Assembly (NCBI GenBank): GCA_026705925.1
Contig: JAPOZT010000008.1
Coordinates: 68,217-132,216 of the forward strand
Source of the DNA: Gemmatimonadota bacterium
Lineage (GTDB): Bacteria; JAAXHH01
Reading direction: 5' to 3'
Length of the DNA stretch: 64,000 nt
Part shown: positions 3,885 to 63,475 of the stretch, piece by piece
Numbering within the stretch: the first letter of the stretch is position 1
Layout of the letters: every line of letters begins with the position of its first letter
Made by a program: the position numbers and the translations under genes
The notes under the pieces: generated by a model
The model's database searches: none
The model's input: the letters and a program-made list of their open reading frames with translations, nothing else
What the model was told of the DNA's origin: nothing

Positions 3885-4714
3885 GATTCGTTCCCGGCGC
3901 TCGCCGCGGGACCTCCGCTACCTGCCGTGGAACCTTCGGCGCCTGCGGCGGGTTCTCCGGCGCTCGCCGCGGCGGACCGCCAGTCGCGCACCGCCCGGGC
4001 GACGGCGACGACGGGGGCGGTCCAGATGCGGTCACGGTGTGCCCGGAGATAGCCGCACAGCCCGCTGAAATCGGATTCCGTCACGGACAGGTGCCCTTCC
4101 GAGATCCCGTGAAAGGTCAACACGGCCCAGTGTCCCTGATTCATCGCCTCCTCGACCAGGCCAATCATCCCGGAGCGGGCCTGGCGCTCCACGGGGAAGG
4201 AGTAGAGGTGGTGGAGATCTGCGGTCAGGGGGGGATTGGCGAAGTCCCCCTTGCCCCGGCCGGCGAAATGGTGGCGGGCCACGACCGGAACGTAACTCCG
4301 GCGGCCCGGTCCCTCGCCCACGTGGGCATGGTAGCAGGGATAGCAGAAGGTGAAATCCACCTGTCCCGGGATGGCTTCGGCGATGCGCCGCCTGCCCTCG
4401 CCGATCTCCCACTCCATGTCGTCGAGGGTCATCGTCTCCAGGCAGTCCGTGCGGGTCTCCTTGAACGCGCAGGAACAGGGATGATTTACCGTATGGTTGC
4501 CCACCTCGTGTCCGTCGTCCGCCACGGCCTTCCACGGCGCGAGCAGGCCGCGCCAGTCCGGACCCTTGGGATTGACGTAAAACGTGCCGTGAAGACCGTT
4601 TTCGGCCAGTATCGGGAGGGCCCGGTCGAGCTGGGACGGCATCCCGTCGTCGAAGGTCAGGGAGACGGCGCCTCCACATCCTTCCCGCCAGGGATGGGGG
4701 TGTCCGCCGGTCAT
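3881..4714 (-). CDS. polysaccharide deacetylase (NodB homology / CE4 family)
   Basis: Carries the TFDDG and HTVNHP motifs typical of CE4 deacetylases. There is a 4-nt stop/start overlap with miaA. Confidence 0.8.
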   Translation of the reverse strand: MTGGHPHPWREGCGGAVSLTFDDGMPSQLDRALPILAENGLHGTFYVNPKGPDWRGLLAPWKAVADDGHEVGNHTVNHPCSCAFKETRTDCLETMTLDDMEWEIGEGRRRIAEAIPGQVDFTFCYPCYHAHVGEGPGRRSYVPVVARHHFAGRGKGDFANPPLTADLHHLYSFPVERQARSGMIGLVEEAMNQGHWAVLTFHGISEGHLSVTESDFSGLCGYLRAHRDRIWTAPVVAVARAVRDWRSAAASAGEPAAGAEGSTAGSGGPAASAGNES

Positions 4715-4845
4715 GGAATCCGCCTTTCATTCACCTTGATTGTATGCCTTGCGCTCCGTATAATATACCATAACCGGTGCCCGGCACCCTGTCAATTTCC
4801 CATTAACCGACTTCCCGTAACACATACGATAGAAAGTACCACGCG

Positions 4846-6192
4846 ATGACCTACGGCGACCGTGACCAACTGCTGAGGGACGACGCATACCTGATCCATC
4901 CCCTGCAGCACCGCGACGATCATGACGAGCCCCTGATCTGCGTACGCGCCGAGGGCTCCACGCTCTTCGACATCGAGGGCAACCGTTACCTCGACGGGCT
5001 TTCCAGCCTGTGGAACGTAAACGTGGGCCACGGACGGCGCGAGCTGGCGGCGGCCGCCGCGGACCAGATCGAGGAACTGGGGTTCTTTTCATGCTACGCG
5101 GGGGCGACGAATATCCCGGCCATACGCCTGGCCAGCCGCCTGAAGGAGCTGGCGCCGGGCGCGCTGAACCATACTTTTTTCACGTCCGGCGGCGCCGTAT
5201 CCAACGACAGCGCGATCAAGACGGCGCGGTACTTCTGGCAACGGGCCGGACGGCCGGACAAGACCGGGATCATATCCAGGAGGCACGCCTACCACGGCGT
5301 GACCATCGGCGCCATGAACGCCACCGGGCTGGAAGCCTACTGGGAGGACTTCGGATCCAGCCTGCCCGGATACGTCCATATCGACGCGCCCTATCCCTAT
5401 CACTACAGGCCTGAGGACCCCGGGGTGGGATGCGGCGAGGCGAGCGCCAGGGCCCTCGAGGAAGCGATTCTGCGGGAGGGGCCCGACAATGTGGCCGCCT
5501 TCATCGGAGAACCCGTGCAGGGCGCGGCGGGCGTCATCGTGCCGCCGGAGGACTACTGGCCGCGAGTCCGGGAGATCTGCACGAAGTACGACGTACTGCT
5601 GATCGCCGACGAAGTGATCACCGGGTTCGGTCGCATCGGCCACTGGTTCGGCGTGTCCTACTGGAATATCGAACCGGACATCATCACCTTCGCCAAGGGC
5701 ATCACCAGCGGGTACGTGCCGCTCGGGGGCATCATCGTCTCGGACGAAATACACGACTGCATCCAGAACGCCCCCGGGGACCGGAAGTGGAATCACTCTT
5801 TCACCTACTCCGGGCACCCGACCTGCTGCGCCGTCGGGCTGGCGAATCTCGATCTCCTGGAGCATGAAGGCCTCATAGAGCGAAGCAGGATCATGGGGGA
5901 AAGGCTGATGGAGGGCCTGCGGACGCTACGGACGCTCCAGCACGTGGGCGACATCCGTGGCATCGGGCTGATGGCCGCCGTGGAGGTAGTGGAAGACCCC
6001 GCATCCCGCAAACCCTACGATCCCGCGTCGAAGACAGGCGGACGCATCGTGAAGAAGATGCTCGAAAACGGCGTCTACACCCGTTGCCGGGGAGACAGCG
6101 TCAGTTTCGCTCCCCCATTCGTCGTAACAACCGAAGAGCTGGACCGGATGGTTAACGTAGCCGGAGAGGCCATTGAATCGGTTACGTCCTGA
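4846..6192 (+). CDS. class III PLP-dependent aminotransferase (omega-transaminase family)
   Basis: Aminotransferase class III architecture. Contains the Schiff-base lysine context FAKGITSGYVPLGG and DEVITGFGRIG. 448 aa. Confidence 0.85.
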   Translation: MTYGDRDQLLRDDAYLIHPLQHRDDHDEPLICVRAEGSTLFDIEGNRYLDGLSSLWNVNVGHGRRELAAAAADQIEELGFFSCYAGATNIPAIRLASRLKELAPGALNHTFFTSGGAVSNDSAIKTARYFWQRAGRPDKTGIISRRHAYHGVTIGAMNATGLEAYWEDFGSSLPGYVHIDAPYPYHYRPEDPGVGCGEASARALEEAILREGPDNVAAFIGEPVQGAAGVIVPPEDYWPRVREICTKYDVLLIADEVITGFGRIGHWFGVSYWNIEPDIITFAKGITSGYVPLGGIIVSDEIHDCIQNAPGDRKWNHSFTYSGHPTCCAVGLANLDLLEHEGLIERSRIMGERLMEGLRTLRTLQHVGDIRGIGLMAAVEVVEDPASRKPYDPASKTGGRIVKKMLENGVYTRCRGDSVSFAPPFVVTTEELDRMVNVAGEAIESVTS

Positions 6193-6220
6193 AGAGGACA
6201 CAGGGACCAGGAGGCGCGCC

Positions 6221-6550
6221 ATGAAACTCCTCATCGCGATCGTCAATAAAAGGGACATCCAGCATCTTACCGATGCACTGATCGACAACGATTTCCGGTT
6301 CACCGAAATCGGCAGCACGGGCGGATTCCTGCGCGCGGGCAATGTCACCCTGTTGATCGGGGTGGACGACGAGCGCGTGCCTCCCGTGCTCGAACTCATC
6401 CAGAACCACTGCCACGCGCGGGAGGAAGCCATCGACGTCGCGCAGATCGGCACCCATCTAGACGCCCTGGGGCTGGGGGAGGCCGTAACGACCACGGTGG
6501 GCGGCGCGCAGGTGTTCATCATCCAGGCCGAACGCATGGTCGTGGTCTGA
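6221..6550 (+). CDS. darA: PII-like cyclic-di-AMP receptor (DarA/PstA, YaaQ/DUF970 family)
   Basis: MKLLIAIVNKRDIQHLTDALIDNDFRFTEIGSTGGFLRAGNVTLLIGVDDERV aligns closely to B. subtilis YaaQ/DarA. RBS GGAGG lies upstream. The start is taken at the internal ATG 6221 of the listed ORF. Confidence 0.75.
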   Translation: MKLLIAIVNKRDIQHLTDALIDNDFRFTEIGSTGGFLRAGNVTLLIGVDDERVPPVLELIQNHCHAREEAIDVAQIGTHLDALGLGEAVTTTVGGAQVFIIQAERMVVV

Positions 6551-6632
6551 TCGGGCACGCTTCCCTTAACCGGACGATCTGTACGATCCGGGCGATCCCG
6601 GCGATCCCGGCTGACAGAACAGGAGTACTTGG

Positions 6633-7733
6633 TTGAGAATAGGAATCATAGGACACACCGGTTGCGGAGACTACGGACATTCCCTGGACCAGGCCTTCGT
6701 GGGCGTGGAGGGCGCTGAGATCGCCGCCCTGGCCGATCCGGTCGAGGAGGGCAGGACGGCGGCGCTGGAACGTACCGGCGCGCAGCAAGGATACGCCCGG
6801 TACACGGATATGCTGGAGCGGGAGAAGCTGGACATCGTCGTCCTGGCCACCCACGAGATGAGCAACCATCTCGCCATGGTGCTGGCCGCCGCCGAACAGG
6901 GGGTCCACGTGTACGCGGAGAAGCCCCTGGCGCGCACCCCGGCCGAAGTGGACACCATGGTGGATGCCTGCGACCGGGCGGGCGTCCTCCTGATCATGGG
7001 CCACCCCTGGCGGGGACGGCCGGAAATCCAGCGCCAGGCCATCCCCATGATCCGGGACGGCGGGATCGGGGAACCGCGCTGGGCCCGCATGTACGGTTTC
7101 GGCGGAGAACACGGGGGAGACCAGTGGCTCATCGATCTCTATCCCCACTTCTTCGATTTCCTGTGGCAGCTCTTCGGCGAACCGTCGTGGTGCCAGGCGA
7201 TCATCACCCAGGACGGCCGTCCGGCCCGCCCGTCGGACCGGAAGGAAGGGCTGTTCGGCATGGGCACCTCCGCGGGAAACGGCCTGTGGGCCCATTACCA
7301 GTTCGACGGTTTCAACGCGGAGTTCGAGTCCTTCGCGGGCGACGGGATCGAGAACCCCTATCGCATCGACCTCCACGGGACCGAGGGCACGCTCGTCCTG
7401 CCCGGCCCCACGCAGGACGGACCGGACATCTACTTTCATCCCCATTCCAACCCGCAGCCCTTCGACGACGACCGCTGGGAAGTGCTCGCCCACGAGCGGG
7501 TGTCGGGCGGGCAGAAATGGATCAACGCCCACCATCGCATGGCCCGATCCATGATGGATCTCATCGAAGGCAGAAATCCTGAATACGAGCTCTGTCACGC
7601 GCGCACGGCCCGCCGTCATATCGAAATGGCCATGGCGGCGCACCGTTCCCACATCACGGGCGCGCGGGTGGCCTTCCCCTTTGCCGAAACGGGCAACCCC
7701 TTCGACACCTGGACGGAAGAAGGGCGGGCCTAG
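6633..7733 (+). CDS. Gfo/Idh/MocA family oxidoreductase
   Basis: N-terminal Rossmann fold (RIGIIGHTGCG) and the EKP motif (VHVYAEKPLA). TTG start. Confidence 0.8.
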   Translation: MRIGIIGHTGCGDYGHSLDQAFVGVEGAEIAALADPVEEGRTAALERTGAQQGYARYTDMLEREKLDIVVLATHEMSNHLAMVLAAAEQGVHVYAEKPLARTPAEVDTMVDACDRAGVLLIMGHPWRGRPEIQRQAIPMIRDGGIGEPRWARMYGFGGEHGGDQWLIDLYPHFFDFLWQLFGEPSWCQAIITQDGRPARPSDRKEGLFGMGTSAGNGLWAHYQFDGFNAEFESFAGDGIENPYRIDLHGTEGTLVLPGPTQDGPDIYFHPHSNPQPFDDDRWEVLAHERVSGGQKWINAHHRMARSMMDLIEGRNPEYELCHARTARRHIEMAMAAHRSHITGARVAFPFAETGNPFDTWTEEGRA

Positions 7734-8642
7734 ATGGACATGGACCGCCTCCGGCACCACCTGGCCGGGCCCGTCGCCTCGATCAACACCCCCTTTTTCG
7801 AAAACGACGACATCGATTACGACGGGTTGCGCCGGTTCGTGGATTTCTGCATCGAAGCCGGGGCGGGCACCGTCCTGTTCACGCCCGGGGACAGTCTCTA
7901 CTCGGTACTCACCGAGGCGGAGGTTGCGGAGCTGACGGCCTTCACCGTTGATGTCGTGAACAAGCGGGCGCTGTTCATTGCGAGCGCGGGGTTCTGGTCC
8001 ACACCGCAGACCGCCGCCTTCGCGGAATTCGCCCGGGACCGCGGCGCGGACGCGGTGATCGTGGCGCCGCCCGACCGCGGGATGACGGTGGACGGTCTCG
8101 TGACGTACTACGATGCGGTATCACAGGCCCTGCCGGCCTTCATCCTGAGCGCCGGGCTGGTGAGCGTGGGGGTCCGGGGCGCGCTGGAAACGGTCGAACG
8201 GCTCCTGGACGAGGTACCGGGCGTCGTGGGATTCAAGGAAGACTTCGGCCCCGATTTTGCCCGGGGCGCCTGCGCCAGGGCCCACGACAAGTGGGTGATC
8301 TTCGCCGGCGGTCAGAAGCAGACCCACATGGACATGCTGCCTTACGGGTGCGACGGGTACATGTCGACCTTCATCAAGTTCAAGCCGGACGTGGCTCACG
8401 CCTACTGGGCCGCCATCGAGCGCGGAGATCTCGATGCGGCCGCAGACGTGATCGCGCGCTACGACATGCCCTTTTTCGACTACCTGTATAACACTTTTCC
8501 GGCGGGCGGCGACGCGGCGCAGCACGCCGTCCTGGAACTGGCCGGCATCTGCGGCCGCTGGCGGAGGAGTCCCCTGCCCGATCTATCGGACGCGGAGATG
8601 GAGCAGCTCAAAGGGTTCCTGACGAACGGCGGCATGCTTTAG
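7734..8642 (+). CDS. DHDPS/NAL family class I aldolase (DapA-like)
   Basis: Typical DapA-family N-terminus (INTPFFENDDIDYDGLRRFVDFCIEAGAGTV). The Schiff-base lysine is in GFKEDFG. Confidence 0.75.
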   Translation: MDMDRLRHHLAGPVASINTPFFENDDIDYDGLRRFVDFCIEAGAGTVLFTPGDSLYSVLTEAEVAELTAFTVDVVNKRALFIASAGFWSTPQTAAFAEFARDRGADAVIVAPPDRGMTVDGLVTYYDAVSQALPAFILSAGLVSVGVRGALETVERLLDEVPGVVGFKEDFGPDFARGACARAHDKWVIFAGGQKQTHMDMLPYGCDGYMSTFIKFKPDVAHAYWAAIERGDLDAAADVIARYDMPFFDYLYNTFPAGGDAAQHAVLELAGICGRWRRSPLPDLSDAEMEQLKGFLTNGGML

Positions 8643-53573: not shown

Positions 53574-54134
53574 ATGACCCAGGAAGAGGGACGATGCATC
53601 GCGCTGGAAATCCATCGCGGCAACCGGGACGCAGTGGGGGATCTGGTGGCGGCGTACCAGGACAGGCTCTTCACCTACGCCTTCCATATGCTGGGTGGTT
53701 CGGACGACGCCCTCGACGTTACGCAGGAGGCCTTTGTCAAGGCGTTCACCACGCTTACCGGGAAATACGACGCGGAGCGCTGCCGGACGCTCGAAATCCG
53801 TCCATGGCTGTACCGCATCGTCCGGAACCTGGCGTTGAACAGGCTGAGGTCGCGCAAACGAAGAGACGACGCGCTGGTCAGCATGAAGGACAACTTGCCA
53901 GCACAGGTTTTCGACACCGGAAACGACCTGGCCAGGACGAGCGCGATCCGAGCGGCCCTCACTGAATTGGGAAGAGAGAGCCGGGAACTGATCATCCTGC
54001 GCTATATCGAGCAATACACGTACGCGGAAATCGCGACGGTCACCGGCTCTTCGGAATCGGCGCTGCGGGGCAAAGTGCACCGTGCGTTGCGTAAACTTCG
54101 CAAGATCATGGAGGATGGCCCCAGTGGATCGTAA
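53574..54134 (+). CDS. ECF-type RNA polymerase sigma-70 factor
   Basis: Region 2 (DLVAAYQDRLFTYAFHMLGG...DVTQEAFVKAF) and region 4 (ELIILRYIEQYTYAEIATVTG). Confidence 0.85.
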   Translation: MTQEEGRCIALEIHRGNRDAVGDLVAAYQDRLFTYAFHMLGGSDDALDVTQEAFVKAFTTLTGKYDAERCRTLEIRPWLYRIVRNLALNRLRSRKRRDDALVSMKDNLPAQVFDTGNDLARTSAIRAALTELGRESRELIILRYIEQYTYAEIATVTGSSESALRGKVHRALRKLRKIMEDGPSGS

Positions 54135-55014
54135 CGAAGCAAGACAGTACCTGGATCAAATCAGATCCGGCGAGGCGGACGATGAGGTCAGCCGGTCCGT
54201 GAAGGAACAGCTGGAAAGGTGCGCCGATTTGTGCGAAGAGGCCGCTTTTTTGGAAAAACTGGCCGCGGAATTTCCCAAACTGAAAATGACCGCTCCCACA
54301 GGCATTGAGGAGGAAGTGATGATCAGGATTACAGACAAATACGATGTGATCGAAACGGATTTCGGACCGGCACACGTGGCATTCACACCCAAAGGCATTT
54401 CGGCCGTGAAACTCGACGTGGAGGAGGACGGCGCCTTCGAATCCTACTACGCCGACAGGCTGGGGCGGCCCACGGTCAGAGGTTCGCTCCCCGAATCGTA
54501 TGCCGATGCGGTCAGGCGGGCCATCAAAGGAGAGAAGAACACCCAGCCACCGGTCACGCTGGAGGGGTTGACCGAGTTCGAAAAGACCGTGCTGGAGCAT
54601 TTGGCCAGGATACCGACGGGCGAGGTCCGTCCCTATGCCTGGCTGGCCCGGGAAGTGGGCAGGCCGAAGGCGATCCGGGCCGTCGGAACTGTCATGGCCC
54701 GCAATCCCGTTCCCTTCCTGATGCCCTGCCACCGGCTCGTGCCCTCGACCGGAGGGGTGGGAAACTACTACTACGGACCGGAAATGAAATGGACCTTGCT
54801 GGAACGGGAAGGGATTCCGCGGGAAAACCTCGCGAACTGGAAGCAGCGCGGCGTGCGCTTCATCGGCAGCCGGACGACCGGCATCTACTGCTATCCGACC
54901 TGCCGCGACGCCCGGCGCGTTCAGCCGCAGCACCGCCTTGAATTCAGCGGTGCAGAAGAAGCGGTTGACGGCGGATACCGGCCGTGCAAGCATTGCAGGC
55001 CAATTTCGGTGTAG
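54115..55014 (+). CDS. anti-sigma-like N-terminal module fused to O6-alkylguanine-DNA alkyltransferase (Ogt/MGMT) and Ada-type Cys4 Zn methyl-acceptor domain
   Basis: Overlaps the sigma gene by ~20 nt. N-terminus EARQYLDQI..GEADDE..VKEQLERCADLCEEA. Ogt N-domain plus the PCHRLV active site (VPFLMPCHRLVPS). The C-terminus TTGIYCYPTCRDAR...GYRPCKHCRP aligns to Ada N-terminal TTGIFCRPSCRAR...GFRPCKRCQP. Confidence 0.75.
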   Translation: MAPVDRNEARQYLDQIRSGEADDEVSRSVKEQLERCADLCEEAAFLEKLAAEFPKLKMTAPTGIEEEVMIRITDKYDVIETDFGPAHVAFTPKGISAVKLDVEEDGAFESYYADRLGRPTVRGSLPESYADAVRRAIKGEKNTQPPVTLEGLTEFEKTVLEHLARIPTGEVRPYAWLAREVGRPKAIRAVGTVMARNPVPFLMPCHRLVPSTGGVGNYYYGPEMKWTLLEREGIPRENLANWKQRGVRFIGSRTTGIYCYPTCRDARRVQPQHRLEFSGAEEAVDGGYRPCKHCRPISV

Positions 55015-55028
55015 ATACAATGTAGATA

Positions 55029-55877
55029 CTACCGATTCCGTGGCGGTATTCGGTCGCCGACGGGTCGGGGTATGGGCCTCCAGTAACCCGAGGGATCGCT
55101 GCCGCGGCAGATTACGGCCCGGTTGTACTCCGGATAGCGGCCCCGCACGTCCGGCGGCAGGTACCGGATCGTCAGGCCGCAGCGCCGGCGGTCGGATACA
55201 TTCGGCTCGGACCCGTGCAACAGCAGATCGGTGTGCATGGAAATCTGGCCCGCCTTCATGACGAAGGGCACCGGATCGCCGCCCCATCTGAGCGGGTCCT
55301 GGACGGTCTGTCCCAGCACGTTGCGTTCGGCTTCCGTACTGTTCTCGAAGGGAATCTGACCGTGAAGGTGGGAACCTGGGATGACCGTCATGGGCCCGTT
55401 CTCTTCGTCCACGTCGTCGATGGCCAACCAAATCGTCACCACCTTGCTCGGGGTCAGAGGCCAGTACGACGCGTCCTGGTGCCAACTCACCCGCTGCACG
55501 TCGCCCGGCATCTTGCAGAAGTAGTGGGTCATCTCGCAGATCAGCGTCTCCCCGACCAGGTCTTCCGCGTAGTCCAGTATCCGCTTGTTCATGGTCAGGT
55601 TGTATATACCCTCGCAGTGCCGCTGCCAGCCATTGATCGAGTAGCTGTTGTATCCTTCCTGCTCGGCGCGGGCCATCAGATCTTCGAAATACAGACGGTT
55701 CTCTTCGGCTTCCTGCGGGGTGAAGACGTCGAGGGGACAGAGATACCCGTTCGCGTTGAAATGGTCGACCTGTTCGCGGGAAAGCGTTTTGGGGTGCTCG
55801 TTCGTTGCCGGGAAAAACCGCAGTTCCCGCTTCATTTCGGGCAGGGCGTCAGTGATGGGCATGGGCGACCTATTCAA
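55029..55877 (-). CDS. PhyH-family Fe(II)/2OG dioxygenase
   Basis: VSWHQDASYW...MTVIPGSH...DRRRCGLTIRY. Close paralogue of 18350-19123. Confidence 0.8.
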   Translation of the reverse strand: MNRSPMPITDALPEMKRELRFFPATNEHPKTLSREQVDHFNANGYLCPLDVFTPQEAEENRLYFEDLMARAEQEGYNSYSINGWQRHCEGIYNLTMNKRILDYAEDLVGETLICEMTHYFCKMPGDVQRVSWHQDASYWPLTPSKVVTIWLAIDDVDEENGPMTVIPGSHLHGQIPFENSTEAERNVLGQTVQDPLRWGGDPVPFVMKAGQISMHTDLLLHGSEPNVSDRRRCGLTIRYLPPDVRGRYPEYNRAVICRGSDPSGYWRPIPRPVGDRIPPRNR

Positions 55878-56830: not shown

Positions 56831-56890
56831 CTATCGCGCCCCTATCGCGCCCCTATCGCGCCCCTATCGCGCCCCTATCGCGCCCCCCTG
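56831..56890. repeat. tandem 12-nt repeat (CTATCGCGCCCC) x5
   Basis: Five perfect copies between the J-domain gene stop and the convergent gene. It overlaps the last codons of 56864-58021. Confidence 0.85.
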
Positions 56891-58021
56891 ATTGAGTACC
56901 CAGCGCGTCAGTGGTCCGCGGTTCTTGGTCACGACCAGCCGTTTGTCTCTCAACTCTTCCAGTGCTCTTCGAACCTGGCGTTCGCTGACGCCAGTACCTA
57001 ACCGAGCGTGAATGTCGCGGCGCGTCAGCCCCTCCTCTGCACGATTGAGCAAAACGAGGACTTCAGCACACCGGTTCGCACTACGACCTCCGCGATCACC
57101 CGATTCCGGCACGAACTGCCCGTTTCGGAACCTCACGGTGACGCACCAGCCGTCGTCTTCGATTTCCAGCGTGGGAAGGCCCGCTGCGCTGGTCAGGTCC
57201 GTCATCTTCAGCGTTCCGTGCCCCCACTCCTCTATGATCCCGCGTCGATGGAAAGCGCGGGCGATTAGTGGATTCCACGGGCGTGATTCGTGCGGAACGA
57301 ACAGCTTCTCAGGCGTCAGCCCGAAATGCAGCGATCCGGCGGACGTGATCTCCAGGCGGTCATCGTAGATCGCCACGCCAATGGAACCGCCGCCGATGGA
57401 ATAGTCGCGATGGCACAACGCGTTCGCCAGCGCCTCGCGGGTCGCAAGTGGCGGATAAAGCGGTTCGTCGATTCGGTCGAAGCGATCATCTTCGAACCGA
57501 GCGGCGATCGGCAGGCTGTCGCGCAGGAAACGTTCAGCGTTCGCGAGGAGCGTGAAGGCGTTGCCGTTGAACTGGCGATTGTCCAGGAATTTCATCTTGT
57601 CGGTTCCCCGGAAGCGGGCCACGCGAAGCAGGCATTGCGGCATTTCGACCTCCAATCTTTCCCCGTTGCCGAACAGGACGGCTGCCGCTCGAAGCAATAC
57701 GCCATCGTGCAGCAAACCGAGTCCTCGCAGCAGGTCGGCCGGCTCCCTGCTTGGCGGTTCATCCATGCGGCCGCGCCGAACGCCCTCCGCGACGACCCGT
57801 CGTATCTCCGCATCGTCAAGGTCGCTGATCGACCATCCGGCGGCAGGTTGGTTTTCCCACCGCTGCTCGCTGTGCATCCGTTCGAACAGCATCCGGTTGT
57901 ACTCGTCAGGAGACAGTACCAGCGTGGTGTTCCCGACCCGGCGGGTTCCCGTCGTCTCCTTGAACTCCAATGTCTCGGACTCGCCGGAGGCGGTGAGGGG
58001 TGTGATTAGTTCGTTATTCAT
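56864..58021 (-). CDS. AlbA_2 (Schlafen-like 'divergent AAA') plus HATPase_c_4 plus C-terminal winged-helix protein, often misannotated as RecG-like regulator
   Basis: The N-terminus ELITPLTASGESETLEFKETTG is the typical AlbA_2 opening. The central region is HATPase_c_4-like. The C-terminal wHTH is RRDIHARLGTGVSERQVRRALEELRDKRLV. Confidence 0.65.
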   Translation of the reverse strand: MNNELITPLTASGESETLEFKETTGTRRVGNTTLVLSPDEYNRMLFERMHSEQRWENQPAAGWSISDLDDAEIRRVVAEGVRRGRMDEPPSREPADLLRGLGLLHDGVLLRAAAVLFGNGERLEVEMPQCLLRVARFRGTDKMKFLDNRQFNGNAFTLLANAERFLRDSLPIAARFEDDRFDRIDEPLYPPLATREALANALCHRDYSIGGGSIGVAIYDDRLEITSAGSLHFGLTPEKLFVPHESRPWNPLIARAFHRRGIIEEWGHGTLKMTDLTSAAGLPTLEIEDDGWCVTVRFRNGQFVPESGDRGGRSANRCAEVLVLLNRAEEGLTRRDIHARLGTGVSERQVRRALEELRDKRLVVTKNRGPLTRWVLNQGGAIGAR

Positions 58022-58076
58022 GCTATCATCTCCTTTTGCATACTGGTCTGTCGGAAAGGAAGCAGGTCGGATAACG

Positions 58077-60260
58077 CTATTCCATCAGGACACTCCTGAA
58101 CCGGGCAATCGTATCCTCGTCCAGGTCTTCGATCCGCACTTCGCCGGAACCGAGCTCCGCGAGAAGATCATTCAGATGCCTGTCGCGGTTCCTGAGGCGG
58201 TTGGCATCGGCCGTGGTCATTTCCCGGTGGATGAGCCGCAGGCGCTCCCGCTGCTCCGAAGTCGGATAGGTAAACCGCAACTCGAAACGCCGCGCTCTCA
58301 GTTTCTCATATTCTGCTTTCAACTGGGCCATGGACTCGCCGAAACCAAGCACGCGGACCCACGCCTTACTTCGCGTTAACGCCGTAAACAGGCAGTTGCG
58401 TACGTTCGCCAGATTACGAACCGCCGAGTGACAGTCCTGGGCATTGATGATATAGACCATGCCGGCTTCGTTGCCCTTGGCGCGGTGAATCCCGGTCAGG
58501 GTCACCGATGCTCTGCCCGGTCGGAAGAAGGTATTCGGATCGGTGTCGACTCCGGCGAGATGGGATCTGATGCCCAGTTCCTTCAAACGACTGCGTATCG
58601 GTTCGACCTTCTCCCGAGTCGCACGAGGATCGGGGTTGATGACCATGATGTCGTCGTGGCGCAGTTCGTCCTTCAGGAAGTTCTCGGCAATGGCCTCCGC
58701 CAGCCAGTCCGCCTGTTCATCTTGGTTTCTGAAGGTGATAAAACGAATCAAGTCGTCGAGGTTGGAATGGTCTTCCAGAAATCCCGGACTCGTATCTTCC
58801 GTACGGTCAAGCGTAACGTCCGAACCGTCGCGCAGTGCCCCTTCCCGCACGCTGTAACCGATGTCTTCCCATAAATGAGCCCGGTCGAACATCTGGACCA
58901 GACCGGTTTCCATCGCAGGGGGCGGTTTCCGGTATATCCCGAGTCCAAGGGCAAACGCCGTGGCCAGCACCGGTTTCGAGTTGCGGTAACATTTCGACAG
59001 CATGATATCACGCTGCGGTGCGAGATCACCGGTGTCGTCAAACCTCACTTTGGGCGATCCATCCTTGTGCTTCCCGAAAATTTCTTCGGGAGAAGGCAGG
59101 GAACTGCCGCGAAGATTCTGCAGTTCGTCATAGGCGTACACCAGTCTCTTGGGTTGTTTGAGCAGTTTGTAGCAGAGCCTCAGAAATACGGGCGGTAAAT
59201 CCTGCGCCTCGTCGACAAGTATCGCGTCGTAGACCGGTTCTCGATTACGTGCATTAGCAAGGGCGTATTCGCACGCCCCCTTGAACTCCCCACCCGGTCC
59301 GAATCTGTTGCGCGCCTTTCCATAGTCAAAAAACGCCATTCCGTACAGGCGGCAGAACTCGGCATAGATGCCCCTGCGATCCTTGCCCTGCCAGGCACCC
59401 CAGGCGTTGACGACACGCAGCTTGTTCCAATCAGGCTCATCGCCGGTTTGTTCGATGAAGAAGTTGTTGATAAGGCGACGAAAATGATCCTTTAAGGAAC
59501 GTGAATTGAACGTGACCGCGATGCGCCATTCGGGATGATACGCATGGAAATAGGCGGCCTTCAGCGCCAGCACGATGGTTTTGCCCGAACCCGCCAGACC
59601 GCGAATACGTTGTATGCCTTCGACCGTTTCCATGACGGCGCGATGCTGCATGTTGTCCAGTGTCGCGATCGATTCCTCGAGTTTGACCAGCTTTGCGCCT
59701 CGCGAATCCTCCTCCGCAACACGCCGGTTGTATCCCCTTTTTCGCATCGTGGTGATGTGCTCGATCGCCGACAGCACCTTCGCGCACATATCCTGGTCAT
59801 GCGGACGCGACCAGGTGAACCGGTTCAGTTCCTGTATGAGCGAGGAGGCGCTCGCGAGCGGGTAGTCCCCTGAACGAGATGAATCACGATTTGAAACACG
59901 ACATGTATCCGGATTGGTCAGTGCGGGGGCGAATGAGATCGTATGGATGGGAACCATGAGATCCCGCCGACGCATCAGTCCCTGGTGTACCTTGAGCCGG
60001 GCTTCGAGCTTGTTGGCCGAATCATCCTGCCGCGCCCCGTAGTCACCCGTTTCGTGACCCTCTATGAGATCGAAAACGACCACGCCCATGTCAGCCGAAA
60101 CCAGCAGGGCGTCAATCATCTGGAGTCCTTCGGACGTACTGAAAATCGGATAGCCGATGAACAAGCACCCCGACCATGCGGATTGCTGGGAAACGATCTC
60201 CACCAGGGCATCGCTTGACGCAGGCTTCTGGCTGGCACCTCGAACGATATCGATACTCAT
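58077..60260 (-). CDS. NERD-domain plus SF1 (UvrD/Rep-like) helicase, Nhi-like architecture
   Basis: N-terminal NERD-like region (IDALLVSADMGVVVFDLIEG). Walker A GLAGSGKT. Motif II ILVDEAQDL. Motif VI LTGIHRAKGNEAGMVYI. C-terminal LFTALTRSKAWVRVLG. Start taken at MSIDIV because the upstream 33 codons are translated from a direct repeat. Confidence 0.75.
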   Translation of the reverse strand: MSIDIVRGASQKPASSDALVEIVSQQSAWSGCLFIGYPIFSTSEGLQMIDALLVSADMGVVVFDLIEGHETGDYGARQDDSANKLEARLKVHQGLMRRRDLMVPIHTISFAPALTNPDTCRVSNRDSSRSGDYPLASASSLIQELNRFTWSRPHDQDMCAKVLSAIEHITTMRKRGYNRRVAEEDSRGAKLVKLEESIATLDNMQHRAVMETVEGIQRIRGLAGSGKTIVLALKAAYFHAYHPEWRIAVTFNSRSLKDHFRRLINNFFIEQTGDEPDWNKLRVVNAWGAWQGKDRRGIYAEFCRLYGMAFFDYGKARNRFGPGGEFKGACEYALANARNREPVYDAILVDEAQDLPPVFLRLCYKLLKQPKRLVYAYDELQNLRGSSLPSPEEIFGKHKDGSPKVRFDDTGDLAPQRDIMLSKCYRNSKPVLATAFALGLGIYRKPPPAMETGLVQMFDRAHLWEDIGYSVREGALRDGSDVTLDRTEDTSPGFLEDHSNLDDLIRFITFRNQDEQADWLAEAIAENFLKDELRHDDIMVINPDPRATREKVEPIRSRLKELGIRSHLAGVDTDPNTFFRPGRASVTLTGIHRAKGNEAGMVYIINAQDCHSAVRNLANVRNCLFTALTRSKAWVRVLGFGESMAQLKAEYEKLRARRFELRFTYPTSEQRERLRLIHREMTTADANRLRNRDRHLNDLLAELGSGEVRIEDLDEDTIARFRSVLME

Positions 60261-60367: not shown

Positions 60368-60662
60368 CACGCGCAACGCACGCGTTCTCAGCGATCCGAA
60401 AGCGACAGTTCTTACGCAGTCCGGTTGCAGCGAGGCTGCGGCCTGGCTGCGGTCTGGCTGGCTGTCCGTTCAGACTGCGTTTTTACGGCTGTATAATTGA
60501 TTAGTAGGGAGAAACGAGGGAGTCTCGTAAGGAAACTCAGATGGAGAGATGGCGCCAGGGAGCGTTGGATGCCTGGCTATAGTCCATGGAGAAACTGGAA
60601 AAGGCGGTGCAGGTGGGTTGGGTAAGGGAGGTTATGGCGTCTTCCAAGGACAACCAGAAGTC

Positions 60663-60755
60663 TTAGGTTTCTGGCAGAAAAGTCACCACGCCTTCGCAAG
60701 GCGCAGCCCACGTCGGTTTCGAAATGACATGGGTGTCCAGCAGGTACCCGTTCAT
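60663..60755 (-). pseudogene. VapC/PIN toxin remnant (N-terminal 30 codons then TAA)
   Basis: MNGYLLDTHVISKPTWAAPCEGVVTFLPET* matches the VapC opening (M.YLLDTNVISE..KP.P...V..WL). Its ATG overlaps the antitoxin TGA as ATGA. No PIN core follows in any frame. Confidence 0.5.
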
Positions 60756-61057
60756 GCTACATCGTCGTCAGCGAACGGCGTCTTGCGATTGGTGTTGCGG
60801 TCCGGAGTGGTCAGGTTGGTACCGCGCGGTATGTTGTTCAACAGCCATTGGCCGAGTGCTTTCCGCGGTGCTTCCTTTCGCTCTCGCCAGACACGTTCCG
60901 GAATGACGACGAACGCTCTGCGCGTTCCAATGCGTTGCGGGCCTTCTTCTTCCGACAGGCGTAGTATCTCGGACAGCCGCGCCTTGGCCTTGGATAACTT
61001 CCAGACTCGTGTAGGTTTGACTTCGTGCTGATTCAATGTGCCACCTTTTAAGTTCAA
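60752..61057 (-). CDS. Phd/YefM-type antitoxin-like protein
   Basis: VWKLSKAKARLSEILRLSEEEGPQRIGTRRAFVVIPERVW fits the Phd/YefM antitoxin pattern. ATGA-coupled to the downstream VapC remnant. Confidence 0.55.
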   Translation of the reverse strand: MNLKGGTLNQHEVKPTRVWKLSKAKARLSEILRLSEEEGPQRIGTRRAFVVIPERVWRERKEAPRKALGQWLLNNIPRGTNLTTPDRNTNRKTPFADDDVA

Positions 61058-61153: not shown

Positions 61154-61489
61154 TTATTCTGCGTACATCTCGGCGATGATGCGGCGCAACTGTGCCGCGC
61201 TTTCGGCGGAAAGGCTGTCAACAAGTTGTCCCAGACGCTGCTTGCTGATGGTGCGTATCTGGTCAACGGCAATCTCGGCGTCCCGATCCGCGCACCGCAC
61301 TTGCAGACGCCCTCGCCAGCGTGGATGCAGGTTAGAGGTAATGGGACAGACGACCACAGTCTCGAGGTGCCGGTTCATTTCGTCGCGGCTGACAATCACC
61401 ACCGGCCTGACCTTGCGAATTTCAGCACCTTTGGTGGGATTCAAGTCAGCCATGTACACGGCATACCGCCGGGGAAACGGGGCCATCAA
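61154..61489 (-). CDS. mazF: type II toxin MazF/PemK family mRNA interferase
   Basis: YMADLNPTKGAEIRKVRPVVIVS...VVVCPITS...DQIRTISKQRL. Confidence 0.8.
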   Translation of the reverse strand: MMAPFPRRYAVYMADLNPTKGAEIRKVRPVVIVSRDEMNRHLETVVVCPITSNLHPRWRGRLQVRCADRDAEIAVDQIRTISKQRLGQLVDSLSAESAAQLRRIIAEMYAE

Positions 61490-61749
61490 TCCAATCCATC
61501 GGCAATTGTGACGTCGAAGTCGCTCCAGTCCTCTGATTCTGCGGCCATGGCGCGGTAGGTCTCCTCCCAGGACAGGTTATGATTCACCTTGCCCCGCAAG
61601 ACGATGCTTTCCTCCATCTCTTCCAGCGTCACCCGGTCACTCCATCCATACTTGTCCAGCAGCGCTTTGGGAATGCGGATGCCTCTGGAATTCCCAATAG
61701 GAATCAACTTGATTTCCCTGATGCGAGACGATTTGTCCATACACTTCAC
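61486..61749 (-). CDS. mazE: MazE/AbrB-family (SpoVT_AbrB swapped-hairpin) antitoxin
   Basis: IPIGNSRGIRIPKALL. 4-nt overlap with mazF. Confidence 0.75.
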   Translation of the reverse strand: MKCMDKSSRIREIKLIPIGNSRGIRIPKALLDKYGWSDRVTLEEMEESIVLRGKVNHNLSWEETYRAMAAESEDWSDFDVTIADGLD

Positions 61750-61943: not shown

Positions 61944-62627
61944 TCACACCGGCCACTTTTCCTTCCGAAACCCCATGTCCCAGAACATCCACTCGTACCG
62001 GCTGGTTGTGACGTAGTGCGCCAGCATGGCCTCGCGGTCTTCAGTCGGAAGTCCTCGCGCGACCCGTTTCGTGATCTCGAGGACGGCGACGACGCACTCG
62101 GCGAACTGCTCGCCGGCGTAGGTGTCGATCCACTGCTGATACATGGGGTCCGGCGAACCCTTCTCGGCCAGCGCCTTGCCCACCTCCCAGTAGATCCAGT
62201 AGCAGGGAAGCACCACGGCCACGACCTCGTGGAAAGGCCGTCCGTAGGCCACGGAAAGCAGGTAGCTGGTATAGGCCTGGCATACCGGCGCCTTGGGCGT
62301 AGTCCAGACCTTTTCCGACGACAGGCCGAAGACGTCGAAGAAGTTCTCCTGCATGGCTCGCTCTTCCACGAGACACCCCTTGGCATGCTCGTTGAAGAGG
62401 ATGATGGTGTCCTCGTCCGGTGCCTTCACCGCGGCGAGGCTCAGGGCCCGGGCGTAGTCCTTTAGATACAGCGCGTCCTGGACGGTGTAGAATTCGAAGG
62501 CCGAACGGTCGAGGTCGCCGGAGGTAAGCCCCTTGATGAAGGGATGTGCGAGGATCGCGTCGTATATTGTGGCCGTCTCCGACCACATGAGATCGGTTAT
62601 TGAGGTTTTCGAGGCGGCCTTGGACAT
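61944..62627 (-). CDS. tenA: TenA/thiaminase II family (heme-oxygenase-like fold) protein
   Basis: TenA_C family pattern (AHPFIKGLTSGDLDRSAFEFYTVQDALYL...LPCYWIYWEVG). Confidence 0.7.
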   Translation of the reverse strand: MSKAASKTSITDLMWSETATIYDAILAHPFIKGLTSGDLDRSAFEFYTVQDALYLKDYARALSLAAVKAPDEDTIILFNEHAKGCLVEERAMQENFFDVFGLSSEKVWTTPKAPVCQAYTSYLLSVAYGRPFHEVVAVVLPCYWIYWEVGKALAEKGSPDPMYQQWIDTYAGEQFAECVVAVLEITKRVARGLPTEDREAMLAHYVTTSRYEWMFWDMGFRKEKWPV

Positions 62628-63475
62628 CAGGACACTCCCGCCCGATCCACAGTCCCGACCCGCACCGCACCGTCCTTCCGCTGGTCGACCGCACGCACGT
62701 GTTCCACGTAGTCTTCCCGCCGAAAGTAAGCGCTGTCCAGGTTGTCCGTTTCGGACGTGACTGACACGGTGACCCAGTGAGTCGCGAAGCCGCGCCGCCA
62801 GCGGTCCGACGTGTTGCGGCGCGACGAGTGGAGCGTCTCCGAGTGGTGGAAGACCACGCCGCCCTTGCGCACCGGTGCGGAGGCTTCCATCGCCCAGTCG
62901 ATCAGGTCGTCCGGTGGCGCCAGGTTGTAGGGCTGGCCGGGGACCTCAACGTGGTCGATGATCCCCTTTTTGTGCGAACCGGAGATGTAACGGAGGCAGC
63001 CGTTCTCCTCGTCCACGTCGTCGAGGGCGATCCAGGCCGTGATGACGTGGCCGCCCGGCGTGCACCGGAAGTAAAAGTTGTCCTGGTGGTAGGGTTTCTC
63101 CGAGCCGAACCGTGGTGGTTTCATGAAGAGCTGGTCGCTCTTGAGCAGAGGTTCTTCACCGGTGAGCTGCCGGAGGATGTCCCGGAGCCGGCCATCCAGG
63201 GCGAAATCGCGGAACAACGGACTCCGCAGGTAGGGACTGTCGATCTTCCGAGGTGCAGTCTCGCCCGATTCGGAACGGTCCAGCAGATAGCCCTCCATGG
63301 ATTCCTCTACTTCCATGGAATCCGCCGTTTCCACGGCCAGTCGGGCCACCTCGTCGGCCTCTTCGGGCCGGTAGACACCTTCGACGACCAGCCATCCCCG
63401 CTCCTGGAACAACTGAACCTGTTCTTCGCTGATCATTCCGGCTTCCTTCCCGGATGGCGCGGGCCGGCCACTCAT
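62627..63475 (-). CDS. PhyH-family Fe(II)/2OG dioxygenase
   Basis: YHQDNFYF...LRYISGSH. Probable start at MISEEQ (63436). Overlaps tenA by 1 nt. Confidence 0.8.
   Translation of the reverse strand: MSGRPAPSGKEAGMISEEQVQLFQERGWLVVEGVYRPEEADEVARLAVETADSMEVEESMEGYLLDRSESGETAPRKIDSPYLRSPLFRDFALDGRLRDILRQLTGEEPLLKSDQLFMKPPRFGSEKPYHQDNFYFRCTPGGHVITAWIALDDVDEENGCLRYISGSHKKGIIDHVEVPGQPYNLAPPDDLIDWAMEASAPVRKGGVVFHHSETLHSSRRNTSDRWRRGFATHWVTVSVTSETDNLDSAYFRREDYVEHVRAVDQRKDGAVRVGTVDRAGVS

What the first reader, a model, noticed from the sequence alone, without database searches (positions are those of the whole stretch)
56864..60260. Candidate two-gene defence module: NERD-SF1 helicase plus AlbA_2/HATPase_c_4/wHTH protein in a lower-GC island flanked by TA loci
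Two co-directional minus-strand genes. The upstream one is a 727-aa protein with an N-terminal NERD-like nuclease-related domain and a UvrD/Rep-type SF1 helicase core (GLAGSGKT, ILVDEAQDL, TGIHRAKGNEAGMVYI). The downstream one is a 385-aa AlbA_2 (Schlafen-like) plus HATPase_c_4 plus winged-helix protein. The region 56.8-61.8 kb is visibly less GC-rich than its surroundings and is followed by a Phd/VapC remnant and mazEF, the typical context of defence islands. The NERD plus SF1 architecture resembles single-gene Nhi-type immunity proteins. The obligate-looking pairing with an AlbA_2 ATPase/wHTH partner is not a system I can name.
Basis: partly seen in the sequence, partly recalled or inferred. 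Interest (0 to 1): 0.75.

Follow-up and report, generated by a model that had tools for sequence, protein, structure and literature searches.

The report
Orphan defence helicase beside eroded neighbour
The first gene is the helicase half of an already described two-gene anti-phage/anti-plasmid system (Helicase+DUF2290) that has lost its usual partner, and the gene beside it is a truncated passenger gene normally found inside restriction-modification operons, so this is not a new two-gene defence system.

Summary
Both genes exist as described (helicase 58077-60260, 727 aa; neighbour 56864-58021, 385 aa; both on the minus strand). The pairing is not a conserved module. The helicase matches the PADLOC 'Helicase' model PDLC03002 over its full length (E 4.5e-290). 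In 66 of 68 evaluable more distant relatives it is followed at once by a DUF2290 gene, and the other two keep a fragment. This is the known Helicase+DUF2290 system (Rousset 2022; PA1372/PA1371). The window's lineage has no trace of DUF2290, yet its helicase stays intact, with dN/dS 0.14-0.30, the same as canonical ones. The neighbour is an AlbA_2/HATPase_c_4/HTH protein whose AlbA_2 core (88 aa) is deleted in frame. Relatives 74-78% identical sit inside type I restriction-modification operons. None of 80 metagenomic relatives and none of 70 canonical helicase loci show the pairing. It occurs only in one syntenic clade of sponge/coral-associated Latescibacterota-like genomes. There the neighbour is full length in 3 genomes, AlbA_2-deleted in 3, and reduced to a remnant or absent in 5, while the helicase always persists. 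Verdict: an orphaned helicase of a known system next to an independent, eroding gene. Interest is low to moderate.

The parts
58077..60260 (-). Helicase gene (727 aa), a member of the helicase family of the Helicase+DUF2290 defence system, here without DUF2290
   Evidence: PADLOC PDLC03002 'Helicase' E 4.5e-290, covering model positions 2-704 of 707. More than 5000 homologues. DUF2290 lies immediately downstream in relatives at 62% identity or less. dN/dS 0.14-0.30.
59901..60260 (-). N-terminal NERD-like / restriction-endonuclease-like domain (aa 1-120). Conserved D50, D64 and E67; the canonical ExK lysine is replaced by I66
58341..59669 (-). SF1 (UvrD-like) helicase core, aa 198-640. Walker A GLAGSGKT is at 59577-59600 and motif II DEAQD at 59199-59213
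   Evidence: Pfam UvrD-helicase (aa 204-255) and UvrD_C_2 (aa 588-637). These motifs are invariant in alignment A1. PcrA is the best solved-structure match (E 2e-5).
58080..58340 (-). C-terminal helical tail of the helicase (aa 641-727), conserved across the family
   Evidence: Conserved columns in A1. Only coiled-coil-type weak Pfam hits.
56864..58021 (-). Neighbour gene (385 aa): an AlbA_2-deleted member of the AlbA_2 + HATPase_c_4 + HTH family
   Evidence: Pfam HATPase_c_4 E 1e-18 and no AlbA_2 hit. Orthologues of 465-489 aa carry SLFN_AlbA_2. The family's usual context is type I R-M operons.
57938..57943 (-). Junction of the 88-aa in-frame deletion that removed the AlbA_2 core (codons R27-R28), at a 7-nt microhomology CGCCGGG
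   Evidence: Protein alignment of window/L001, L007, L008, L010 and L014. DNA at both junctions.
57128..57391 (-). HATPase_c_4 domain (aa 211-298)
   Evidence: The only solved relative is 3LMM, an uncharacterised protein.
56915..57082 (-). Probable C-terminal (winged) helix-turn-helix, aa 314-369
   Evidence: Weak hits only: Pfam HTH_23 E 0.0036 and the N-terminal HTH of the PADLOC WYL model, E 0.0016.
60648..60755 (-). Remnant of a VapC/PIN toxin gene (first 36 codons only)
   Evidence: tblastn with the intact 139-aa PIN protein of the syntenic locus L003: 67% identity over aa 1-36. PIN is annotated in L003.
60752..61057 (-). Phd/YefM-like antitoxin ORF
   Evidence: Pfam PhdYeFM_antitox E 1.4e-4, below the gathering score. 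84% identical to the L003 ORF that precedes the intact PIN gene.
61154..61749 (-). mazEF toxin-antitoxin pair (mazE 61486-61749, mazF 61154-61489)
   Evidence: Pfam MazE_antitoxin E 9.5e-6 and PemK_toxin E 8.6e-27.

Best explanation
The two genes are neighbours by descent, not a functional pair.

Gene 1 is the helicase component (NERD-like domain + SF1 motor + helical tail) of the known Helicase+DUF2290 anti-phage/anti-plasmid system. In the window's lineage DUF2290 has been lost. The helicase has been kept under unchanged purifying selection. It therefore most likely still works, by itself or with an unlinked factor, as an ATP-driven motor that engages foreign replicating DNA. That activity is an inference, based on T7 protection by the canonical system and on the PA1372-plasmid Rep conflict.

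Gene 2 is an independent AlbA_2/HATPase_c_4/HTH gene of the kind normally carried inside type I restriction-modification operons. It entered the slot behind the helicase in the ancestor of one syntenic clade and has been eroding since. In the window its Schlafen-like AlbA_2 core is deleted, leaving a HATPase_c_4 + HTH protein whose most likely remaining role (inferred) is DNA binding or regulation. The two genes are probably co-transcribed (55-nt gap, no terminator), but neither needs the other.
For: Family assignment:
- PDLC03002 'Helicase' E 4.5e-290, full length.
- Of 70 loci on the canonical branch, 65 have an intact-like DUF2290 directly downstream on the same strand. One more is split, two are truncated, one is cut by a contig end and one is not evaluable.
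- That downstream gene is Pfam DUF2290 (E 5e-53) and PADLOC PDLC02999 (E 1.6e-94).
- Annotated E. coli plasmid and ICE examples exist.
- The window helicase is homologous to the B. cereus VD115 Helicase+DUF2290 helicase printed in Rousset's supplement (33% identity, E 3e-47, N-terminal domain included).

Loss of DUF2290:
- No DUF2290 signal in the 64-kb window or within 6 kb of the helicase in any clade-A or clade-B locus.
- The sister lineage P0021 has a DUF2290 truncated to 78 aa (tree).

Helicase still constrained:
- ORFs are intact. dN/dS is 0.14-0.30 in clade A against 0.12-0.30 in canonical pairs with dS 0.15-0.6.
- 180 of 212 highly conserved positions are kept in every clade-A member.

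Neighbour independent:
- P0130, P0200, P0212 and P0139 (74-78% identical) all lie in hsdM-hsdS-(AAA_15/21 ATPase or an unannotated ORF)-X-hsdR operons.
- 0 of 80 metagenomic relatives have the helicase nearby.
- In clade A the neighbour is full length in L008, L010 and L085. It is AlbA_2-deleted in the window, L007 and L014, with L014 an independent out-of-frame event.
- It is reduced to different remnants in L179 (aa 340-375) and L003/L004 (aa 301-378). It is absent in L005 and L006, and DUF3800 occupies the slot in L009.
- The neighbour's gene tree disagrees with the helicase tree.

Published phenotypes of the canonical system:
- T7 protection (PMC9122126).
- PA1372 inactivation abolishes the cost of plasmid pNUK73 and the SOS induction, and PA1372 is always found with PA1371 (PMC4410645; PMC11637435).
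Against: - The neighbour occupies exactly the operonic position of DUF2290: same strand, with a 19-138 nt gap.
- By parsimony on the NJ tree it was present in the common ancestor of clade A, at about the time DUF2290 disappeared.
- Surviving copies have low dN/dS (0.08-0.23), including the pair that shares the AlbA_2 deletion. An optional functional association in this clade is therefore not excluded.
- The NERD-like domain lacks the canonical ExK lysine, and its acidic residues are not conserved in the E. coli/Klebsiella and Bacillus members. A stand-alone nuclease activity is doubtful, and what an orphan helicase does remains inferred.
- A DUF2290 gene elsewhere in the window's genome could not be searched for.
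- I did not verify directly that the experimentally tested K. pneumoniae helicase falls under the same HMM. The link rests on context, domain coordinates and the B. cereus sequence.
Confidence: 0.65

Rival explanations
1. Partner swap. In clade A the AlbA_2/HATPase_c_4/HTH protein functionally replaced DUF2290, creating a new two-gene helicase-based defence system.
For: - Same strand and a tight gap at the DUF2290 position.
- Ancestral to clade A on the tree.
- Both genes are under purifying selection.
- Both families are habitual guests of type I R-M operons, next to another nuclease-helicase, HsdR.
- Other DUF2290-less helicases are followed by other defence-like genes: DUF3800, HATPase_c_3 and an EEP nuclease.
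Against: - The neighbour is lost or reduced to remnants in 5 of 11 clade-A genomes, and its AlbA_2 core is deleted in 3 more. The helicase is intact in all of them.
- The closest relatives of the window helicase (P0002 at 91%, L005 at 90%) lack the neighbour.
- The pairing occurs in 0 of 150 loci outside the clade.
- The gene trees are incongruent.
- The neighbour's low dN/dS fits a family that is 72-91% conserved across phyla and sits in R-M operons where looked up, so it is not specific evidence for an interaction.
Confidence: 0.12
2. Split system. The helicase still works with a DUF2290 protein encoded elsewhere in the genome.
For: The helicase is constrained as strongly as canonical ones. 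Only 64 kb of the window genome and 6-kb flanks elsewhere could be inspected.
Against: - DUF2290 is adjacent in essentially every canonical locus, so unlinked arrangements are not the norm.
- None of the clade-A genomes in the species-level genome collection contributed a second helicase locus among the 80 best hits, which reach down to 53% identity. A second canonical system there is therefore unlikely.
- The sister lineage shows DUF2290 decaying in place.
Confidence: 0.08
3. Both genes are functionless relics of a broken-up type I R-M-embedded defence islet, on their way to pseudogenisation.
For: - Neighbouring decay: the VapC remnant, the AlbA_2 deletion, the neighbour's remnants in relatives, and hsdR+YgjP still upstream in L009.
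- DUF2290 is lost.
Against: - The helicase ORF is intact in all 11 or more clade-A genomes over dS of about 0.25-0.5, with dN/dS 0.14-0.30, no higher than canonical helicases. Its catalytic motifs are invariant.
- The AlbA_2-deleted neighbour copies in the window and L007 differ at dS 0.36 with dN/dS 0.08.
Confidence: 0.08
4. Housekeeping repair or replication helicase (UvrD/PcrA/Rep/RecD2) with an unrelated regulator downstream.
For: Weak matches of the motor domain to UvrD-helicase/PcrA.
Against: - NCBIfam PcrA, Rep, RecD2 and helicase IV score 15-20 bits against cut-offs of 500-950.
- The full-length match is to a defence-system HMM.
- The distribution is patchy across many phyla, on plasmids and ICEs, and in R-M operons.
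Confidence: 0.02

Closest known systems
Helicase+DUF2290 system (Rst_HelicaseDUF2290; Rousset et al. 2022, K. pneumoniae P4-like satellite; P. aeruginosa PA1372/PA1371)
   Same: The helicase is a full-length match to the PADLOC helicase model. It has the same architecture as the tested protein: NERD-like domain at about aa 11-112, SF1 core at about aa 190-630. It is 53-62% identical to helicases that are followed by DUF2290 in dozens of phyla.
   Different: No DUF2290 gene in the window or in any member of its clade. The downstream slot holds an unrelated gene. There are seven clade-specific substitutions at otherwise >=95% conserved helicase positions: T253S, R429K, H436F, G553E, D576N, F588L and L721F.
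Nhi (nuclease-helicase immunity, single-gene NERD + SF1 protein)
   Same: The overall layout is a restriction-endonuclease-like N-terminal domain followed by an SF1 helicase. The gene possibly acts alone here.
   Different: Not homologous beyond the generic motor: the PADLOC Nhi model matches 40 aa at E 0.0016. The canonical nuclease ExK motif is absent. The family normally has a second gene.
AlbA_2 + HATPase_c_4 + HTH proteins (COG2865-type, often annotated 'putative DNA binding domain-containing protein' or 'RecG-like'; solved example 3LMM)
   Same: The neighbour is 72-91% identical to more than 120 cluster representatives of this family. It keeps the HATPase_c_4 and C-terminal HTH parts.
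   Different: The AlbA_2 (Schlafen-like) core is deleted in frame. The gene lies behind a helicase instead of between hsdS and hsdR of a type I R-M operon.
PrrC anticodon nuclease embedded in the EcoprrI type Ic R-M operon (recalled from memory, not tested)
   Same: A second-line defence gene carried between hsd genes. This is the usual genomic setting of both the neighbour's family and many Helicase+DUF2290 pairs.
   Different: No sequence relationship. In the window no hsd genes remain, so any such logic would be lost.
Helicase-nuclease defence pairs such as Hachiman (HamAB) and Gabija (GajAB)
   Same: A sensor helicase encoded with a separate partner protein. There are weak GajB matches to the motor.
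   Different: These are different helicase families: GajB models match at E 4e-7 or worse, over partial regions only. The partner is missing here.

Membership tests
Helicase+DUF2290 system (Rst_HelicaseDUF2290) | Helicase matching the system's helicase profile over its full length | tested here: met
   PADLOC PDLC03002 E 4.5e-290, 962 bits, protein aa 3-725 against model positions 2-704 of 707.
Helicase+DUF2290 system (Rst_HelicaseDUF2290) | DUF2290 (PF10053) gene adjacent to the helicase | tested here: not met
   A DUF2290 HMM built from 56 neighbours finds nothing in the six-frame translation of the 64-kb window or of the clade-A/B loci. It does find DUF2290 in 69 of 70 canonical-branch loci.
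Helicase+DUF2290 system (Rst_HelicaseDUF2290) | Protection against phage (T7) or conflict with plasmids | not testable with these tools
   Known only for canonical members (PMC9122126; PMC4410645).
NERD domain (Pfam PF08378) | Significant match to the NERD profile | tested here: not met
   No Pfam hit for aa 1-200 at E<=10. HHpred NERD at 98.1% is reported for the tested homologue only.
PD-(D/E)xK / restriction-endonuclease-like fold | The fold of the N-terminal domain | tested here: met
PD-(D/E)xK / restriction-endonuclease-like fold | Catalytic D...(D/E)xK residues | tested here: inconclusive
   D50, D64 and E67 are invariant in the close family. The lysine position is I66, and the motif differs in the E. 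coli/Klebsiella and Bacillus members.
Nhi | Match to the Nhi profile beyond generic helicase motifs | tested here: not met
   PDLC02372 E 0.0016, 15 bits, aa 343-385 only.
Housekeeping SF1 helicases (PcrA, Rep, RecD2, helicase IV) | Score above the NCBIfam equivalog cut-off | tested here: not met
   15-20 bits against cut-offs of 500-951.
AlbA_2 + HATPase_c_4 + HTH family (COG2865-type) | HATPase_c_4 domain | tested here: met
   PF13749 E 1e-18, aa 211-298, full profile.
AlbA_2 + HATPase_c_4 + HTH family (COG2865-type) | SLFN_AlbA_2 domain | tested here: not met
   No hit in the window protein. An 88-aa deletion is seen relative to L008 and L010, which do score (E 1e-19).
AlbA_2 + HATPase_c_4 + HTH family (COG2865-type) | C-terminal (winged) HTH | tested here: inconclusive
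   HTH_23 E 0.0036, below the cut-off. The HTH part of the PADLOC WYL model scores E 0.0016.
Conserved two-gene module (helicase + AlbA_2/HATPase_c_4) | Co-localisation of homologues in independent lineages | tested here: not met
   Adjacent only in one syntenic clade. 0 of 70 canonical helicase loci and 0 of 80 loci of neighbour relatives.
mazEF toxin-antitoxin | MazE-type antitoxin followed by a PemK/MazF toxin | tested here: met
   PF04014 E 9.5e-6 and PF02452 E 8.6e-27, with overlapping ORFs.

The most novel reading that the evidence does not exclude
In one clade of sponge/coral-associated bacteria, the helicase of the Helicase+DUF2290 system exchanged its DUF2290 partner for a Schlafen-like AlbA_2/HATPase_c_4/HTH protein taken from a type I R-M operon. 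This would give a new helicase-based two-gene system, and would be an example of partner modularity in this family. The AlbA_2-less form in the window would then be a derived, still functional variant.
Probability: 0.12. Interest if true: 0.6.

Novelty: new variant of a known kind. Interest (0 to 1): 0.3.

Why it matters
The finding as written, a new two-gene defence system, does not hold, so it should not be pursued as one.

What remains is modest but usable:
- A natural lineage in which the helicase of the mechanistically uncharacterised Helicase+DUF2290 system has persisted without DUF2290 under unchanged purifying selection. This argues that the helicase has activity or value of its own. 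It also marks seven clade-specific substitutions as candidate contacts with the lost partner.
- Both Helicase+DUF2290 and the AlbA_2/HATPase_c_4 family are frequent passengers between hsdS and hsdR of type I R-M operons. This is a lead on how such add-on genes may be wired to restriction enzymes.

Tried and rejected
- Pfam on the isolated N-terminal 200 aa at E<=10 gave nothing.
- A profile search of solved structures with the helicase alignment gave only PcrA/UvrD motor hits. With the neighbour alignment it gave only 3LMM.
- The first NJ attempt timed out. It was replaced by identity-based clustering and a Kimura-distance NJ tree.
- A literature search for AlbA_2/HATPase_c_4 returned nothing on the bacterial family.
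- The Rfam scan of the window was empty.
- The promoter/terminator scan showed nothing above shuffled expectation and no terminator between the two genes.
- An initial reading was that all helicases at >=65% identity form one DUF2290-less clade. I rejected it after P0022 (70%) and P0029 (65%) turned out to carry DUF2290. The tree indicates at least two losses.
- An initial reading was that the 385-aa gene is a decaying pseudogene. I softened it, because the two copies that share the deletion differ at dS 0.36 with dN/dS 0.08.
- The E. coli chromosomal example is on an ICE, not a P4 satellite. It therefore does not link this subfamily directly to the tested P4 locus.


Full report
**Observation**

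The region holds two minus-strand ORFs as described. One is a 727-aa protein at 58077-60260. Its ORF can be extended to 60359, but all homologues start at MSIDIV. The other is a 385-aa protein at 56864-58021, 55 nt downstream. The quoted helicase motifs are present. Pfam gives UvrD_C_2 and a weak UvrD-helicase hit for the first protein. For the second it gives HATPase_c_4 plus a sub-threshold HTH, with no NERD and no AlbA_2.

The flanking genes are mazE and mazF, a Phd-like ORF, and a VapC/PIN remnant of 36 codons. The GC dip is modest and begins at the helicase: 56.9% against 62.3% for the window. The second gene is 61.9%. GC3 is 67-72% in both genes against about 80% in the flanking metabolic genes. 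No Rfam family is present in the window. No terminator-like site lies between the two genes.

**What the helicase is**

PADLOC's model PDLC03002 ('Helicase') matches it end to end at E 4.5e-290. Nhi, GajB, AbiO and a 'NERD+UvrD' candidate match only short motor segments. NCBIfam models of PcrA, Rep, RecD2 and helicase IV score 15-20 bits against cut-offs of 500-950. The family is large, with more than 5000 hits, and about 60% identical across many phyla.

I fetched 80 loci from species-level genomes with a helicase alignment, called ORFs and clustered the neighbours. One cluster of about 225-aa proteins sits immediately downstream on the same strand. Pfam calls it DUF2290 (E 5e-53) and PADLOC calls it 'DUF2290' (PDLC02999, E 1.6e-94).

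An HMM of this cluster was searched against six-frame translations of the 70 loci whose helicase is <=62% identical to the window's:
- 65 have an intact-like DUF2290.
- One is split.
- Two are truncated.
- One is cut by the contig end.
- One ends at the helicase and cannot be evaluated.

Annotated E. coli examples show the same pair on an IncI/K plasmid and on a chromosomal ICE. This is the Helicase+DUF2290 system of Rousset et al. 2022, which protected against T7 (PMC9122126). It corresponds to PA1372/PA1371 in P. aeruginosa, where helicase inactivation removes the cost and SOS induction caused by plasmid pNUK73 (PMC4410645; PMC11637435). The window helicase aligns with the B. cereus VD115 system helicase printed in Rousset's supplement, at 33% identity and E 3e-47, including the N-terminal domain.

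**The NERD question**

So 'NERD-like + SF1' is right at the remote-homology level, and it is already a published property of this system. The canonical ExK lysine is I66 here. The acidic residues D50, D64 and E67 are conserved only within the closer family. Whether the domain cuts DNA is open.

**The missing partner**

Neither the 64-kb window nor any locus whose helicase belongs to the window's clade shows any trace of DUF2290. Clade A comprises L001/window, L003/4, L005-L010, L014, L085 and L179, at 76-100% identity. All are syntenic, with the gene order TenA, toxin-antitoxin genes, helicase, a variable slot, DnaJ, PhyH, Ada-like, ECF sigma.

A distance tree places clade A next to P0021, whose DUF2290 is truncated to 78 aa. 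Next out is the P0022 group, with intact DUF2290. A second DUF2290-less group (L011-L013) branches separately, so the partner was lost at least twice.

The orphan helicases are intact. Their dN/dS of 0.14-0.30 is the same as in canonical helicases at comparable divergence, 0.12-0.30. All catalytic motifs are retained. 180 of 212 highly conserved positions are unchanged, with seven clade-specific substitutions.

**What the second gene is**

Orthologues in L008, L010 and L085 are 465-489 aa and carry SLFN_AlbA_2 plus HATPase_c_4. The window copy and L007 share an 88-aa in-frame deletion between two CGCCGGG microhomologies, which removes about 80% of the AlbA_2 domain. L014 is 99.5% identical in DNA to the intact L008 copy and has a different, out-of-frame deletion of the same region.

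The family is abundant and very conserved. More than 120 cluster representatives are 72-91% identical, and all are full length. Four relatives at 74-78% identity from other lineages lie inside type I R-M operons, in the order hsdM-hsdS-(AAA_15/21 ATPase or an unannotated ORF)-X-hsdR. At least one of them is Chloroflexi from the same metagenome series. In 80 JGI metagenome loci holding relatives at 38-73% identity, none has the helicase nearby. The closest ones are again next to hsd genes. The only solved relative is the uncharacterised 3LMM.

**Is the pair a module?**

Adjacency is confined to clade A, so it counts as one evolutionary observation. Within that clade the neighbour varies:
- Full length in L008, L010 and L085.
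- AlbA_2-deleted in the window, L007 and L014.
- Reduced to a 36-aa remnant in L179, whose helicase is 91% identical to the window's.
- Reduced to an approximately 78-aa remnant in L003/L004.
- Absent in L005 (90% identical helicase) and L006.
- Replaced in L009, where DUF3800 occupies the slot.

The helicase is present and intact in all of these genomes. The neighbour's tree disagrees with the helicase tree. The window's neighbour is closest to L010's (dS 0.27, against 0.43 for the helicases). L007 and L008 show the opposite pattern. The neighbour's low dN/dS (0.08-0.23) fits a family that is 72-91% conserved across phyla and sits in R-M operons where looked up, so it is not specific evidence for an interaction.

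What cannot be excluded is an optional association within clade A. The neighbour sits in the exact operonic position of DUF2290. By parsimony it arrived in the clade's ancestor.

**Origin**

About 20 of the 70 canonical Helicase+DUF2290 loci adjoin hsd genes. Several have the order hsdS-helicase-DUF2290-hsdR (L017, L018, L021, L026, L050, L177). L019 and L021 carry a distant AlbA_2 paralogue in the same operon. L009 of clade A still has hsdR and YgjP upstream. The simplest history (inferred) is that both genes were passengers of a type I R-M islet. That islet then broke up in the clade-A ancestor, leaving the helicase and the AlbA_2 gene side by side among toxin-antitoxin genes.

**Mechanism, with basis**

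Shown: the family assignment, the loss of DUF2290, continued constraint on the helicase, the restriction-endonuclease-like N-terminal fold, the deletion of AlbA_2, and the lack of a conserved pairing.

Inferred: the helicase still acts as an ATP-dependent motor on foreign replicating DNA, alone or with an unlinked factor, by analogy with T7 protection and the PA1372-Rep conflict. The truncated neighbour retains at most a DNA-binding or regulatory role through HATPase_c_4 + HTH. I put 0.65 on 'orphaned helicase of a known system plus an independent eroding neighbour'. I put 0.12 on a clade-specific partner swap, 0.08 on a trans-encoded DUF2290, 0.08 on functionless relics, and about 0.02 on a housekeeping helicase.

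**Novelty and score**

PADLOC or DefenseFinder would recognise the helicase but not call a system, because DUF2290 is missing. The locus is a new variant of a known kind, not a new system. Interest is 0.3. The useful residue is the natural DUF2290-less lineage under unchanged selection, and the recurrent embedding of both gene families between hsdS and hsdR.

Noticed in passing
L017, L018, L021, L026, L050, L177 (helicase at about 6001-8160 or 4001-6181; hsdR directly after DUF2290): Canonical Helicase+DUF2290 pairs are often embedded in type I R-M operons between hsdS and hsdR. About 20 of 70 loci adjoin hsd genes.
   Followed up: partly
L086, L087-L090, L091, L092 (gene at 5001-6400): The AlbA_2/HATPase_c_4 family occupies the same slot of type I R-M operons, usually after an AAA_15/AAA_21 ATPase and before hsdR and a YgjP-like gene. 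The layout is reminiscent of PrrC in EcoprrI.
   Followed up: partly
window 57938-57943; L007 and L014 downstream of the helicase: The AlbA_2 core was deleted at three separate tips of the clade-A tree. The window and L007 share an identical in-frame junction at CGCCGGG microhomology. L014 has a different, out-of-frame deletion. The HATPase_c_4+HTH half stays conserved. The AlbA_2 domain may be harmful outside its R-M operon.
   Followed up: partly
L093 1373-12166: The order is hsdR, helicase, DUF2290, a SIR2_2 protein, then a second helicase copy of the same family. This is a compound locus that may be a larger variant of the system.
   Followed up: no
L009 8198-8851; L012 8311-10269; L013 8395-9258: Other DUF2290-less helicases are followed by different genes: DUF3800 (217 aa), an HATPase_c_3 protein (652 aa), and an endonuclease/exonuclease/phosphatase-family protein (287 aa). 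These are either hot-spot cargo or alternative partners.
   Followed up: no
window helicase residues 253, 429, 436, 553, 576, 588, 721: There are seven substitutions fixed in clade A at positions that are >=95% conserved in DUF2290-linked helicases: T253S, R429K, H436F, G553E, D576N, F588L and L721F. They are candidate contacts with the lost partner.
   Followed up: no
window 53574-55014 (+): An ECF-type sigma factor (186 aa) is followed by a 310-aa protein combining MGMT-type DNA_binding_1 and Ada_Zn_binding domains. The pair is conserved in all syntenic relatives. This is an unusual sigma-factor/alkylation-repair pairing.
   Followed up: no
window 55029-55877 and 62627-63475 (-), and further copies in L001: There are several phytanoyl-CoA dioxygenase (PhyH) paralogues around the islet. 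The record titles of the closest genomes point to sponge/coral-associated Latescibacterota or 'Gemmatimonadetes' MAGs.
   Followed up: no
clade-A loci L001, L007, L008, L010: The neighbour's gene tree conflicts with the helicase and DnaJ trees. This suggests allele exchange of the AlbA_2/HATPase_c_4 gene among co-resident symbionts.
   Followed up: partly
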